Positions 14,698 through 53,052 of a stretch of 64,000 nt of DNA are shown here, in pieces (position 1 is the first letter of the stretch; each line of letters opens with the position of its first letter). The stretch covers positions 1 to 64,000 of IMG/VR virus record IMGVR_UViG_3300036823_000301, one strand, 5' to 3'. The position numbers and the translations under genes were made by a program. This DNA comes from a virus. Under the pieces are notes generated by a model. The model saw only the letters and a list, made by a program, of their open reading frames with translations. It searched no databases and was not told the DNA's origin.

Positions 14698-15552
14698 ATG
14701 ACAACAACTGTAAGAGTTATAGCAGACAGCTATTACGATCACGGTGTTCGCCTCACAACATTACAATTGAAATACCCGCGCTTCATTCATCCGGAATTTT
14801 TGACTCATCGTGTGTTTTCAAGAAACGCGAGCTCTTCGCGGGCAACCCCTGTTGAGCGTATCATCGAATCGCTTGAGCGCGATCCAGTACGTCCATGTGA
14901 ATGGGGTAAAAACAGACCTGGTATGCAGGCACATGAAATTTTCGACCCTCTCGAAGTTTTTGAATTGGAGAGTTTATGGATAGACGCCATGGCCGAGATG
15001 GTTCGTGTGGCCAAGAATATGGTAGCTCGTGGTGTACACAAATCCATCGTGAATCGACTATTGGAGCCATGGTCCCATATCAATGTGATTGTGACATCGA
15101 CAGAGTGGTCAAACTTTGAAGAATTGCGTTGCCATCCAGACGCCGCACCGGAAATGCAAGAATTGGCTCAAGCCATTCGTGATGAGATGGTGTTAAGTGG
15201 CCCACAAATTCTACATGCTGGTGAATGGCATATTCCATATGTCAACTTGATTGAACGCAGTCAGCTGAATCTACAGGCACAGTTGAAAATAAGTGTGGCT
15301 CGCTGCGCACGTGTGTCGTTTTTGACACACGAAGGCAAAGTACCTCAAACTGCTAAGGATTTGGAGCTTTACGATCGTTTGGTTGGTGCGAAGCCGCTGC
15401 ATGCCAGCCCATCCGAACATCAAGCTACCCCTGATCCGACGAATGCTCACTGTTCCGAGCATGGTAATTTTCGTGGCTGGCGGCAATTCCGCAAAATTCT
15501 GGAGAAAGATTCGACACTTTTAGCTTTACAGCAGACCGCCATAGCAGTATGA
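14698..15552 (+). CDS. thyX: flavin-dependent thymidylate synthase (ThyX/Thy1, phage type)
   Basis: THRVFSRNASSSRA (RHRxxSxxxxSxR-like), HKSIVNRLLEP, SVARCARVS, HASPSEH. Confidence 0.88.
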   Translation: MTTTVRVIADSYYDHGVRLTTLQLKYPRFIHPEFLTHRVFSRNASSSRATPVERIIESLERDPVRPCEWGKNRPGMQAHEIFDPLEVFELESLWIDAMAEMVRVAKNMVARGVHKSIVNRLLEPWSHINVIVTSTEWSNFEELRCHPDAAPEMQELAQAIRDEMVLSGPQILHAGEWHIPYVNLIERSQLNLQAQLKISVARCARVSFLTHEGKVPQTAKDLELYDRLVGAKPLHASPSEHQATPDPTNAHCSEHGNFRGWRQFRKILEKDSTLLALQQTAIAV

Positions 15553-15553
15553 A
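15525..15553 (+). promoter_or_regulatory. putative promoter of the Y RNA-Ro60 locus
   Basis: TTTACA-N17-TATGAA; predicted +1 falls at ~15558-15560, the 5' end of the first Y RNA. Confidence 0.55.
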
Positions 15554-15557
15554 GTCT

Positions 15558-15691
15558 GTGTCGAGTCGGATGAGGTTGATTATCCTTTTGGCGGACGAGG
15601 TCGAAGGTTCGAGTCCTTCTCCTAGGGTAAATCCTAGGGTAGCTCAGCTGGTAGAGCGCGCGTATATCAACTTTGAATTTTTACTCGACAC
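15558..15691 (+). ncRNA. yrlA: YrlA-type Y RNA (Ro60-binding stem plus circularly permuted tRNA-like domain)
   Basis: Terminal stem GTGTCGAGT(15558-66)/ACTCGACAC(15683-91) with bulged C; T-arm GAAGG-TTCGAGT-CCTTC; loop-closed acceptor-like stem TCCTAGGG-TAAA-TCCTAGGG; D-arm GCTC-AGCTGGTA-GAGC; order T-acceptor-D; adjacent to a TROVE gene. Confidence 0.9.
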
Positions 15692-15706: not shown

Positions 15707-15773
15707 GGTGACAGTCGGATGAGTTCGTTTATCGCTAGGATGATCGCGAATTCATAAAATACTTACTGTCGCT
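15707..15773 (+). ncRNA. minimal Y-RNA-like hairpin 2
   Basis: GGTGACAGT-C-GG.../...CTT-ACTGTCGCT terminal stem; inner stem ATGAGTTCG/CGAATTCAT; shared TTATC motif. Confidence 0.75.
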
Positions 15774-15780
15774 CTAAATC

Positions 15781-15857
15781 GTGATGCTAGTCGGGTAGTG
15801 TCGTTTATCAGTTATCAACTGATCCAACGTGTGACATTAAAGACTTACTAGCATCAC
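15781..15857 (+). ncRNA. minimal Y-RNA-like hairpin 3
   Basis: GTGATGCTAGT-C-GG.../...CTT-ACTAGCATCAC terminal stem; inner stem TAGTGTCG/TGACATTA; TT-ATCAGTT/AACTGAT hairpin. Confidence 0.75.
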
Positions 15858-15862
15858 TTTAC

Positions 15863-15901
15863 AACGGCCCGGACAACTAGCCCCTCTGTCCGGGCCGTTT
15901 T
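15863..15901 (+). terminator. intrinsic terminator or processing hairpin between the Y RNAs and Ro60
   Basis: AACGGCCCGGACA-(11 nt)-TGTCCGGGCCGTT, ending in a 4-T tract. Confidence 0.6.
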
Positions 15902-15923
15902 GATTCTATCGAAGGAATAGAAG

Positions 15924-17561
15924 ATGACCAACGTGTATGTGAAGAACCGTAAGTCCGTTCTGACACCGCAGAACCAGCCGATTCCAGGCCGTGAAGCTGA
16001 AATGGTGCCGAATAATGCCGGCGGCTACAGCTTTGAGCTGGATGATTGGGAACGTTTGAATCGCTTTTTGATTCTGGGTAGTGAAAAAGGTACTTATTAT
16101 GTAGGCCAAGAAAAACTTAAAGAGCAAAATGCGACCTGTGTGATTCGCTGCATCAAAGCGGATGGTGTGCGCGTTGCTGATGCCGCTGCGATGATCAATA
16201 TCTCTAATCGCACGCCGAAGGTTGACCAGCAGCTGTTTGTTCTGGCTTTGTGCTTAAAGCATGGGGACATCGCTACCCGACGTCGTGTAGCGGAGCTGGT
16301 GCCATCAGTTGTCAGAATTGGTATGCATTTGCTGCATTTCGCGGCGATGGTGGATTCGCTTGGTGGCTGGGGAAACCTCAAAAAGCGGATCTTTGCTGAC
16401 TGGTTTCTAAACAAGTCGCCGGATGATGTGGCATTTCAGATCCTGAAGTACCGGAATCGGGATGGGTGGACCATGCGCGATATCCTGCGTCTGGCGCATC
16501 CTAAACCAGAATTTTCCGGCCATATGGCGTTGTTTGCATGGGTCACCGGTAAGCTGACAAATCTTGACCATCTACCCCGAATCATCGCTGATTATCTTGA
16601 TGTGACGACAGGCACCTTCGAGACCCCTGTTCAGCAAGCGCTGGCTGGCATTGCCAGGGGGCTACCACGTGAGTGCCTACCAACGGAGGCACTAGCGGAT
16701 AAGGCCGTCTGGAGCCGGTTGCTAAGGCTCACGCCGCCACATGCCTTAATCCGGAATCTCGCAACGATCACGGCCAATGGCACCATTGTCGCCGGGAATG
16801 CTGACGCGTGCTATGTGGTCGAACGTTTGGAAGATGCCGGGTCTTTGGCGCGGGCACGGGTGCACCCATTCGCGCTCCTATTGGCGGCGCTCATCTATAG
16901 GCAAGGACACGGATTCAAAGGCACGTTGAGCTGGCTCCCCCTGCCATCTGTTGTGGGTGCATTAGACAATGCTTACGACGCTGCCTTCGCCACGATCCTG
17001 CCGACGAACAAGCGGATCTTGATCGGAGTGGATACATCAAGATCGATGAGCGGTTCTTGCACAGGGACTCCGATCGACTGTGCCACGGCAGCGGCTGCGA
17101 TGGCGATCACGTTGGCCAGAAACGAACCTGCGGCAACTGTCGTGCGGTTTGATACCTGTGTCAGATCTATCCTACCGGTGACTCTTCGTACCGGAATCAG
17201 CGATTTAAGATCGACGTCAGGGGGAGGCACCGACATATCCGCTCCAATCCGTTGGGCCTCTGGCGACAAGAGTGTATCAACGTCACGTTGGGGCCAGCGT
17301 GACGAGGGCTTAATGAGCGAAGTGAGGATATTCGACGCTTTCATCATATTGACTGATAATGAGACATGGGCTGGATCTGGTCATCCTTCACAGGCCCTGG
17401 TGGAATACCGTAAGAAAGTCAATCCACAAGCCAAGCTAATTTGCTGTTCGATGGCCGCGAACCATGCCAACATTGTTGACCCGGAAGATGGTGGATCGTT
17501 CGGCACCGCCGGGCTTGATGCCCATTTACCAAATTTGGTCAGAGACTTTTTGAGCTCTTGA
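15924..17561 (+). CDS. rsr: Ro60/Rsr TROVE-vWA RNA-binding protein
   Basis: NNAGGYSF...RLNRFLILGSE.GTYY, GGWG, KYRNRDGW..RDILRLAHPKP, ALIRNL, RVHP, MIDAS DTSRS, GGTD, ILTDNETW. Confidence 0.96.
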   Translation: MTNVYVKNRKSVLTPQNQPIPGREAEMVPNNAGGYSFELDDWERLNRFLILGSEKGTYYVGQEKLKEQNATCVIRCIKADGVRVADAAAMINISNRTPKVDQQLFVLALCLKHGDIATRRRVAELVPSVVRIGMHLLHFAAMVDSLGGWGNLKKRIFADWFLNKSPDDVAFQILKYRNRDGWTMRDILRLAHPKPEFSGHMALFAWVTGKLTNLDHLPRIIADYLDVTTGTFETPVQQALAGIARGLPRECLPTEALADKAVWSRLLRLTPPHALIRNLATITANGTIVAGNADACYVVERLEDAGSLARARVHPFALLLAALIYRQGHGFKGTLSWLPLPSVVGALDNAYDAAFATILPTNKRILIGVDTSRSMSGSCTGTPIDCATAAAAMAITLARNEPAATVVRFDTCVRSILPVTLRTGISDLRSTSGGGTDISAPIRWASGDKSVSTSRWGQRDEGLMSEVRIFDAFIILTDNETWAGSGHPSQALVEYRKKVNPQAKLICCSMAANHANIVDPEDGGSFGTAGLDAHLPNLVRDFLSS

Positions 17562-52778: not shown

Positions 52779-53052
52779 CTATGTGTTCGCGACAGGCCGT
52801 TAATCCTATCACCGCTCTTTCGAGCTGCTGCATATCCCTATGCAGAGCAGATCATGTCATCACCCATTGCATCAAATGGGGCCGGGCGCTTCCACTCACT
52901 TGAGTGTACTCCCTCGCGGGATGATCGTTGCACCTTCCGTCTTGCGACGGCTTGGCTCAAAGTTAACCGTTCTGGTACTTCTTTGAGTTCACCCGGTTCT
53001 TCGATAGATTTCTCAATCTAAAGGGCCAAAACTCATTCGTTACGGAGTCTTT
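52779..53052 (-). ncRNA. group I self-splicing intron (IA-like, P7.1/P7.2 present), ORF-less, 274 nt; boundaries could shift by 1 nt
   Basis: P3 CCGGGUG/CGCCCGG, P4 CUCAAAG/CUUUGAG, P6a CCGUC-GCAA-GACGG, P7 GAUCA/UGAUC, P7.1 UCCC-GCGA-GGGA, P7.2 CACUCA/UGAGUG, P8 CCCAUU/AAUGGG, P9 CUGCAUA-GGGA-UAUGCAG, terminal G; removal restores the frame. Confidence 0.88.

What the first reader, a model, noticed from the sequence alone, without database searches (positions are those of the whole stretch)
15707..15857. Two minimal (67 and 77 nt) Y-RNA-like genes lacking the tRNA domain
Seen: both keep the terminal helix with compensatory differences (GACAGT/ACTGTC vs GCTAGT/ACTAGC vs TCGAGT/ACTCGA in RNA 1), the bulged C, an A-rich 3' internal loop (AAAATA, AAGA) and CGTTTATC, but carry only a small hairpin as effector domain. 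The within-array covariation argues for selection on structure. Inference: they may be an undescribed minimal Y RNA class that gates or sponges Ro60 (phage or host Rsr). Standard annotation would miss them.
Basis: partly seen in the sequence, partly recalled or inferred. Interest (0 to 1): 0.8.

Follow-up and report, generated by a model that had tools for sequence, protein, structure and literature searches.

The report
Two mini Y RNAs before phage Ro60
Two short hairpin RNA genes (67 and 77 bases) just upstream of a soil phage's Ro60 gene are genuine miniature Y RNAs, partner RNAs of Ro60; they are real but ordinary members of a widespread, poorly annotated family.

Summary
RNA2 (15707-15773) and RNA3 (15781-15857) are stable, strand-specific hairpins. 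They lie between a YrlA-like tRNA mimic (15558-15691) and a terminator hairpin, 67-217 nt upstream of an intact Ro60 gene (15924-17561) in a 74-kb soil phage.

Each RNA has a closing helix, a bulged C, GG opposite (C)UU, a second helix, and UUAUC exactly 13 nt after the bulged C.

I built a covariance model from 69 similar hairpins beside other Ro60 genes, leaving the window out. Over the whole window on both strands, its two best hits are exactly RNA2 (E 0.013) and RNA3 (E 0.09). On 80 independent bacterial Ro60 loci the model finds 101 hits, 98 of them on the Ro60 strand.

No Rfam family detects RNA2 or RNA3. This includes YrlA, YrlB and the nematode sbRNA family RF01656, although RF01656 reaches its threshold on four relatives. 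Standard annotation would therefore miss them.

The class is not undescribed. Simple hairpin Y RNAs are known (YrlB, Yrn2, Thermus phage phiLo Yrl2, sbRNAs). This scan has also met the same family in at least 54 other genomes.

Ro60 binding and a gate or sponge role are inferred, not shown. Verdict: new member of a known kind, moderate to low interest.

The parts
15707..15773 (+). RNA2, a 67-nt mini Y RNA. Closing helix 15707-15715 with 15765-15773; bulged C 15716; GG 15717-15718 opposite CU(U) 15762-15764; second helix about 15719-15728 with 15746-15755; UUAUC 15729-15733 paired with GAUGA 15739-15743; apical loop GCUAG.
   Evidence: Fold -26.4 kcal/mol, z -4.55. Best hit of the independent family model R2 in the window: 20.1 bits, E 0.013, full model length.
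15781..15857 (+). RNA3, a 77-nt mini Y RNA. Closing helix 15781-15791 with 15847-15857 (11 bp); bulged C 15792; second helix AGUGUC/GACAUU; UUAUC 15805-15809 leading into the apical hairpin AUCAGUU-AUC-AACUGAU.
   Evidence: Fold -29.0 kcal/mol, z -4.70. Second-best R2 hit in the window: 16.4 bits, E 0.093. Found by the RNA2-only model R1 at E 0.0045.
15558..15691 (+). RNA1, a YrlA-like Y RNA with a tRNA-like domain (T arm, closed acceptor-like stem, D arm). It carries the same AGU-C-GG / ACU docking helix and UUAUC at +13.
   Evidence: Rfam YrlA RF02553: 33.3 bits, E 2.7e-5, below the gathering score of 69. Sequence read; motif offset.
15863..15904 (+). GC-rich hairpin followed by UUUUG. It looks like an intrinsic terminator or 3' stabiliser closing the three-RNA unit, 20 nt before the Ro60 start codon.
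   Evidence: Fold -25.8 kcal/mol, z -5.95. The tool's terminator scan did not list it, because its loop is longer than 8 nt.
15924..17561 (+). Ro60 (TROVE + vWA) gene, 545 aa, intact.
   Evidence: Pfam TROVE and vWA_Ro60. Matches solved Ro60 structures at E 1e-88 to 5e-83 (9NEN, 2NVO, 1YVP). The MIDAS D-x-S-x-S residues are invariant in alignment A1.
15525..15553 (+). Possible weak promoter, TTTACA-N17-TATGAA, inside the end of thyX and just upstream of RNA1. The lead came from another note on this window.
   Evidence: The letters are present. The promoter scan did not call it. Unverified.

Best explanation
RNA2 and RNA3 are simple hairpin Y RNAs of the phage's own Ro60 particle. I propose the following, marking what is shown and what is inferred.

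- They are made on the + strand together with the YrlA-like RNA1, as one short transcript ending at the hairpin at 15863-15904 (inferred).
- The transcript is cut in the A/U-rich 7-15-nt spacers (inferred; a single precursor is shown for M. smegmatis YrlA and YrlB in PMC4201824).
- Each RNA is then held and protected by Ro60 through its closing helix, bulged C and G-G/U-U step. This is the same module that Ro60 recognises in animal Y RNAs (inferred from sequence and from family membership).
- Lacking the tRNA-like effector domain, they most likely act as plain lids or adaptors on Ro60. They would occupy the Y-RNA site and so control access of other RNAs to the ring. Like phiLo Yrl2, they may also bridge Ro60 to host PNPase (inferred).

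The confidence given applies to 'real Ro60-partner Y RNAs'. The specific gate or sponge role I rate at about 0.3.
For: - Position and strand: 67-217 nt upstream of an intact Ro60 gene, on the same strand, in tandem with a YrlA-like RNA.
- Folding: strong and strand-specific.
- Independent family model: R2 was trained on 69 hairpins from other Ro60 loci, without the window. Its two best hits in 128 kb of searched sequence are exactly RNA2 and RNA3, with matching ends.
- Family reality: a motif-plus-helix scan gives 235 hits on the Ro60 strand against 16 on the other strand in 160 loci, with a bimodal length distribution of about 60 nt and about 130 nt. In 240 loci, 129 have at least one mini unit.
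- Covariation: helix 2, which my scan did not select for, is 82% paired with compensatory changes at 8 of 8 pairs. When the partner columns are slid, pairing drops to about 40%.
- Independent loci: R2 finds 101 hits (E <= 0.01) in 80 bacterial Ro60 loci that were not used for training, 98 of them on the Ro60 strand.
- Nearest Ro60 relative (55% identity, L081): it also has two mini units flanking a YrlA. One of them was not in the training set and scores E 1e-7.
- Literature: hairpin Y RNAs bind Ro60 in three bacteria (PMC4201824) and in Thermus phage phiLo, where a minimal Yrl2 mimic binds with KD about 17 nM and ternary complexes form with PNPase (PMC12135203).
Against: - There is no expression or binding data. 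No RNA sequencing run holds this DNA, which is not evidence either way.
- The R2 scores are modest (20 and 16 bits). The window's copies diverge from the family consensus: AGU rather than GGC before the bulge, and CGU rather than GGG before UUAUC.
- The published bacterial motif GNCGAA reads GUCGGA/GUCGGG here.
- The genome search route with R2 did not recover them, although the exhaustive search did.
- No close orthologues could be fetched to test covariation of these two genes themselves.
Confidence: 0.8

Rival explanations
1. They are cis-acting leader elements of the Ro60 mRNA, not free RNAs. Ro60 would bind Y-like hairpins in its own 5' leader and, together with the hairpin at 15863-15904 acting as an attenuator, feed back on its own synthesis.
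For: The array lies directly upstream of Ro60 on the same strand. A terminator-like hairpin sits only 20 nt before the start codon, and no separate Ro60 promoter was found.
Against: In other loci the same units lie downstream of Ro60 (for example L058/L060) or on the other strand (L207), which does not fit a leader role. In M. smegmatis and Salmonella the equivalent units accumulate as free Ro60-bound RNAs (PMC4201824). The two roles are not mutually exclusive.
Confidence: 0.1
2. They are decaying duplicates of the YrlA gene that have lost the tRNA domain. They would be remnants of tandem duplication without a function of their own.
For: All three copies share a locus-specific flavour of the stem (AGU-C-GG ... 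ACUUACU). This suggests within-locus duplication or concerted evolution.
Against: Both keep perfect closing helices through compensatory changes. Both keep UUAUC at exactly +13 and fold very stably. Units of about 60 nt without a T arm are the commonest form in the family: 170 mini against 110 T-arm units in 240 loci. The nearest relative keeps two as well.
Confidence: 0.05
3. They are decoys aimed at the host's Ro60 (Rsr) or host PNPase rather than partners of the phage Ro60. They would sponge a host RNA-surveillance or defence factor.
For: phiLo Yrl1 and Yrl2 bind host PNPase on their own and damp its activity (PMC12135203). Three RNAs per Ro60 gene suggests an excess of RNA.
Against: The host is unknown. 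Across loci the stem flavour travels with the neighbouring Ro60 gene: AGU-C-GG here, GGU/GAU-C-G in L081, GGC-C-G in most others. That fits a cognate pairing better than a host target.
Confidence: 0.05

Closest known systems
YrlB of Salmonella Typhimurium and M. smegmatis, and Yrn2 of D. radiodurans (second, hairpin-type bacterial Y RNAs; Chen et al. 2014, PMC4201824; Rfam YrlB RF02565)
   Same: They are Ro60-linked RNAs encoded next to the Ro60 gene together with a tRNA-like Y RNA. They are long hairpins closed by 5'/3' pairing, with the Ro60 motif near the 5' end and no full tRNA-like domain. In M. smegmatis they lie upstream of rsr and are processed from one precursor.
   Different: The Rfam YrlB model gives no match in this genome even at E <= 10. 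The motif GNCGAA reads GUCGGA/GUCGGG. The apical loops (GCUAG, AUC) are not pyrimidine-rich. M. smegmatis YrlB is said to have a possible T arm, and these RNAs have none.
Yrl1 / Yrl2 of Thermus phage phiLo (NAR 2025, PMC12135203)
   Same: They are phage-encoded stem-bulge-stem RNAs just upstream of a phage Ro60 gene. Yrl2 is a single hairpin, shown to bind the phage Ro60 and host PNPase.
   Different: My family model finds nothing in the phiLo locus (MH673673). phiLo Ro60 is too diverged to match this Ro60 by sequence among solved structures. The phiLo paper describes no tRNA-like partner RNA.
Nematode stem-bulge RNAs (Rfam RF01656 ceN72-3_ceN74-2) and vertebrate Y RNAs
   Same: They share the lower stem, bulged C, G(G/A)(A/U)G, an upper stem, and UUAUC at the start of the loop. 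The RF01656 consensus ...CGGUC-C-GGAG-ucga-UGGGUUAUC ... CCCA-ucga-CACCAACUUGACCG matches relatives of these RNAs almost letter for letter. The UUAUC motif is reported as conserved in sbRNAs and vertebrate Y RNAs (PMC4450293, PMC4726728).
   Different: RF01656 reaches its gathering score on only four relatives (L233, L138, L105, L003) and not on the window's copies. The eukaryotic RNAs have large internal loops, a poly-U tail that binds La, and Pol III promoters. Their UUAUC is linked to DNA replication, not to Ro60.
YrlA (Rfam RF02553)
   Same: It shares the docking helix, bulged C and the U/CUAUC junction. RNA1 in the same array is of this type.
   Different: RNA2 and RNA3 lack the T arm, acceptor-like stem and D arm. 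There is no YrlA match at E <= 10.

Membership tests
Y RNA in the broad sense (Ro60 partner RNA) | The 5' and 3' ends pair to form a closing helix that holds the Ro60 site: a bulged C followed by G-U / (A/G)-U pairs. | tested here: met
   Sequence read; folds. AGU-C-GG lies opposite (C)UU-ACU in both RNAs.
Y RNA in the broad sense (Ro60 partner RNA) | In prokaryotes, encoded within a few kb of a Ro60 gene on the same strand. | tested here: met
   They lie 67-217 nt upstream of the TROVE+vWA ORF at 15924-17561, on the + strand.
Y RNA in the broad sense (Ro60 partner RNA) | Physically bound by Ro60 and dependent on it for accumulation. | not testable with these tools
   No RNA run holds this DNA. 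The test needs immunoprecipitation or a gel-shift assay.
Mini Y RNA family defined here (model R2, 69 seeds from other Ro60 loci) | Significant full-length match to the covariance model. | tested here: met
   RNA2 scores 20.1 bits (E 0.013) and RNA3 16.4 bits (E 0.093). They are the top two of all hits in the window with filters off, and the next hit has E >= 2. The scores are modest.
Mini Y RNA family defined here (model R2) | UUAUC about 13 nt after the bulged C, directly after the 5' strand of helix 2. | tested here: met
   The offset is exactly 13 in RNA1, RNA2 and RNA3.
YrlB (Rfam RF02565) | Match to the Rfam covariance model (gathering score 97 bits). | tested here: not met
   No match at E <= 10 in the locus or in the whole genome.
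YrlA (Rfam RF02553) | tRNA-like effector domain (T arm, acceptor-like stem, D arm). | tested here: not met
   Only RNA1 matches YrlA. RNA2 and RNA3 are single hairpins, and ARAGORN finds nothing.
Nematode sbRNA (Rfam RF01656) / vertebrate Y_RNA | Match to the Rfam covariance model. | tested here: not met
   No match in the window at E <= 10. Four relatives in other loci reach the gathering score.
phiLo Yrl1/Yrl2 | Stem-bulge-stem with a CGAA motif, upstream of a phage Ro60, binding that Ro60. | tested here: inconclusive
   The architecture and position are the same, but the motif here is CGGA/CGGG. R2 does not detect anything in the phiLo locus. Binding was not testable.

The most novel reading that the evidence does not exclude
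RNA2 and RNA3 are diverged members of a very large prokaryotic and phage family of 60-75-nt Y RNAs. The family's whole core (lower stem, bulged C, upper stem, UUAUC at +13, CAACUUG on the 3' side) is the same as in nematode sbRNAs and vertebrate Y RNAs. If this reflects common descent or a shared Ro60-particle constraint, two things follow. The UUAUC and upper-stem element, known in animals only for DNA replication, would be an ancient part of the Ro60 RNP. And the published view that bacterial Y RNAs are unrelated to the vertebrate clades would need revising. I found no paper in the searchable library that states this, but this scan has already reported it from other genomes.
Probability: 0.4. 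Interest if true: 0.6.

Novelty: new member of a known kind. Interest (0 to 1): 0.35.

Why it matters
For this phage, the result completes the annotation of a self-contained Ro60 particle: one tRNA-mimic Y RNA and two plain hairpin Y RNAs. It also gives exact coordinates for binding and expression tests.

More generally, it adds one more case to a picture that annotation pipelines miss. Most Ro60 genes of phages and bacteria are flanked by arrays that mix tRNA-like and mini Y RNAs. Current Rfam models either miss the mini units or label a few of them as 'nematode sRNA'. A dedicated model for this family would be useful.

The shared UUAUC module offers a testable link between prokaryotic and animal Y RNAs. 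The two genes in this window add little that is new beyond that.

Tried and rejected
The contigs of the 55-59% identical Ro60 relatives (P0002-P0025) could not be fetched, and only L081 (55%) was available.
- The search for related loci with the single protein found nothing in viral contigs.
- A MAFFT alignment of RNA2 with L081_s3 alone was misregistered. Alignments A2-A4 were unreliable on the 3' side, so I did not use them for pair counts.
- The single-sequence model R1 was insensitive. It found only RNA3 and four to five hits in other Ro60 loci.
- My first regex scan wrongly called some YrlA units 'mini', because the T arm GGUUCGA can pair with the 5' strand. I removed these before building A9.
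- A relaxed genome-wide motif scan gave only chance hits (62 on + against 80 on -) and was discarded.
- An exact-pattern scan of viral contigs for the window-specific stem variant gave 18 loci. None has an R2 hit, so all are chance matches.
- The genome search with R2 on the window's own genome returned nothing, although the exhaustive cmsearch did find both RNAs. I attribute this to the pre-filter.
- Sequencing runs: no RNA holder is listed, only four soil-metagenome DNA runs.
- R2 on the phiLo Ro60 locus found nothing significant. A CGAG...CUAUC match upstream of phiLo Ro60 is within chance expectation.
- The review PMC10870794 is not held.
- The sigma-70 and terminator scan found nothing above chance in the gap.

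Full report
**Setting.** The window is most of a 74,423-bp single-contig virus record rated complete. It comes from soil metagenomes. The finding lies in a 371-nt gap between thyX (14698-15552) and a 545-aa TROVE + vWA protein (15924-17561). Upstream of thyX are nrdA and nrdB. The protein is a clear Ro60 orthologue. It matches solved Ro60 structures from animals and D. radiodurans at E 1e-88 to 5e-83, and it keeps the MIDAS D-x-S-x-S residues that are invariant in its family.

**Observation.**
- RNA2 (15707-15773, 67 nt) folds as one hairpin at -26.4 kcal/mol, z -4.55 against shuffles.
- RNA3 (15781-15857, 77 nt) folds as one hairpin at -29.0 kcal/mol, z -4.70.
- Folding the whole gap gives four independent modules, z -6.3: RNA1, RNA2, RNA3 and a GC-rich hairpin followed by UUUUG.
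- The reverse strand of RNA2 folds at only -12.7 kcal/mol, so the G-U pairs mark the + strand as the RNA strand.
- RNA1 (15558-15691) is a weak YrlA match (33 bits against a gathering score of 69, E 2.7e-5) with clear T and D arms.

All three RNAs share the same layout: a closing helix, AGU, a bulged C, GG, a second helix, and then UUAUC. The bulged C and UUAUC are exactly 13 nt apart in each. This strict motif occurs nowhere else in the genome on either strand. Three of the six inner closing-helix pairs differ between copies and stay paired.

**Is it more than a local curiosity?** The nearest Ro60 relative I could fetch is L081 (55% identity). It has the same kind of array in a different order: mini, YrlA, mini.

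I then ran a simple scan over 160 viral and metagenomic Ro60 loci. It looked for C-G-R, 8-11 nt, TTATC, preceded by 6 nt that pair with a stretch 30-220 nt downstream.
- It gave 235 hits on the Ro60 strand against 16 on the other strand.
- Lengths were bimodal, at about 60 nt and about 130 nt.
- Over 240 loci, 170 had a hit, 129 had at least one unit under 85 nt without a T arm, and 95 had two or more units.

I removed false 'mini' calls where the T arm had been taken for the 3' strand. Then I aligned 69 mini units from other loci (A9). RNAalifold gives two helices.
- Helix 1 was partly selected by my scan, so its pairing is partly by construction.
- Helix 2 was not selected. It is 82% paired, with compensatory changes at all eight pairs. 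Pairing falls to about 40% when the partner columns are slid.

**Membership of the window's RNAs.** The covariance model R2 was built from A9 without any window sequence. I ran it over the whole window on both strands with filters off. It ranks RNA2 first (20.1 bits, E 0.013, 15707-15773) and RNA3 second (16.4 bits, E 0.093, 15783-15855). All other hits have E >= 2 and are bare hairpins. The scores are modest because these copies read AGU rather than GGC before the bulge and CGU rather than GGG before UUAUC.

On 80 bacterial Ro60 loci that played no part in training, R2 finds 101 hits at E <= 0.01. The best reach 71 bits, 98 are on the Ro60 strand, and most lie just upstream of the gene. The untrained L081 unit scores E 1e-7. 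The family is therefore real, large, and present across phages and many bacterial phyla.

**Known families.**
- No Rfam family reaches threshold on RNA2 or RNA3, and none appears even at E <= 10.
- YrlB (RF02565) and the nematode sbRNA family (RF01656) give nothing in this genome.
- RF01656 does reach its gathering score on four relatives (L233, L138, L105, L003).
- The alignment shows why. The sbRNA consensus CGGUC-C-GGAG-NNNN-UGGGUUAUC ... CCCA-NNNN-CACCAACUUGACCG is nearly identical to the prokaryotic consensus.
- In 20 array-rich loci, Rfam at gathering thresholds found no YrlA and only three of the dozens of mini units.

**Literature.**
- Chen et al. [quoted passage not shown] In M. smegmatis both are processed from one precursor upstream of rsr. 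The paper also says that such RNAs 'eluded bioinformatic discovery'.
- The Thermus phage phiLo study (PMC12135203) identified two Y-like RNAs upstream of a phage Ro60. One of them is a single hairpin. The study showed binding (a minimal mimic has KD about 17 nM), a cryo-EM complex, and ternary complexes with host PNPase that slow RNA decay.
- R2 does not detect the phiLo RNAs. The resemblance there is one of architecture and context, not of demonstrable sequence family.
- UUAUC is described as a conserved motif at the 5' end of the loop of sbRNAs and vertebrate Y RNAs, needed for DNA replication activity (PMC4450293, PMC4726728).
- The same review calls bacterial Y RNAs 'not homologous with' the vertebrate clades.
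- I found no paper linking UUAUC to prokaryotic Y RNAs.

**Earlier notes of this scan.** The same kind of array and the same UUAUC/sbRNA link have already been reported from at least 54 and at least 8 other genomes respectively. I reached the RF01656 link independently before reading those notes. One note gave me the YrlB accession, which I tested with a negative result.

**Mechanism.**
- Shown: position, strand, fold, family membership, covariation in the family, and an intact Ro60 gene.
- Inferred: one transcript from a weak promoter-like site at the end of thyX to the hairpin at 15863-15904; cleavage in the 15-nt and 7-nt A/U-rich spacers; capture and protection of each unit by Ro60 through the bulged-C helix.
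- Also inferred: without the tRNA-like effector domain, RNA2 and RNA3 would act as plain lids or adaptors that regulate access to the Ro60 ring. As in phiLo, they may link Ro60 to host PNPase.
- Rivals: an autoregulatory leader, decaying duplicates, or decoys for host factors. I judge these less likely for the reasons given under each.

**Verdict.** These are real mini Y RNAs and new members of a known kind, not an undescribed class. Interest is moderate to low for these two genes. The family-level link to animal Y RNAs is the more interesting thread, and it is already on record in this scan.

Noticed in passing
window 52828-53044 (- strand): Group I catalytic intron. Rfam RF00028 scores 54.7 bits, above the gathering score of 50. 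It is the only Rfam family at threshold in the window. I did not examine the host gene.
   Followed up: no
window 15811-15816: RNA3 carries a second GUUAUC inside its apical hairpin (AUCAGUU-AUC-AACUGAU), so the UUAUC motif appears twice in this RNA. It may be coincidence or a local duplication.
   Followed up: no
L200 369-814: A GOLLD RNA (Rfam RF02032, 165.7 bits) lies about 1.7 kb upstream of a Ro60 gene, among tRNA genes, on a contig binned as Enterobacteriaceae that looks phage-like.
   Followed up: no
L124, L004, L068 (whole loci): Many phage Ro60 / Y-RNA arrays are embedded in large tRNA gene clusters, with up to about 20 tRNAs within 6 kb. This fits the proposed tRNA origin of Y RNAs.
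   Followed up: no
L207 4100-6319 (- strand): This is the only locus where the mini Y hits (three) lie downstream of Ro60 on the opposite strand.
   Followed up: no
L233 2362-2430, L138 1860-1938, L105 1801-1864, L003 2220-2293: Prokaryotic and phage mini Y RNAs reach the gathering score of the Rfam nematode sRNA family RF01656. Automatic annotation would label them as nematode RNAs.
   Followed up: partly
window 15863-15904: A strong hairpin plus UUUUG lies between the Y RNA array and the Ro60 start codon. Ro60 expression would need read-through or an unseen promoter.
   Followed up: partly
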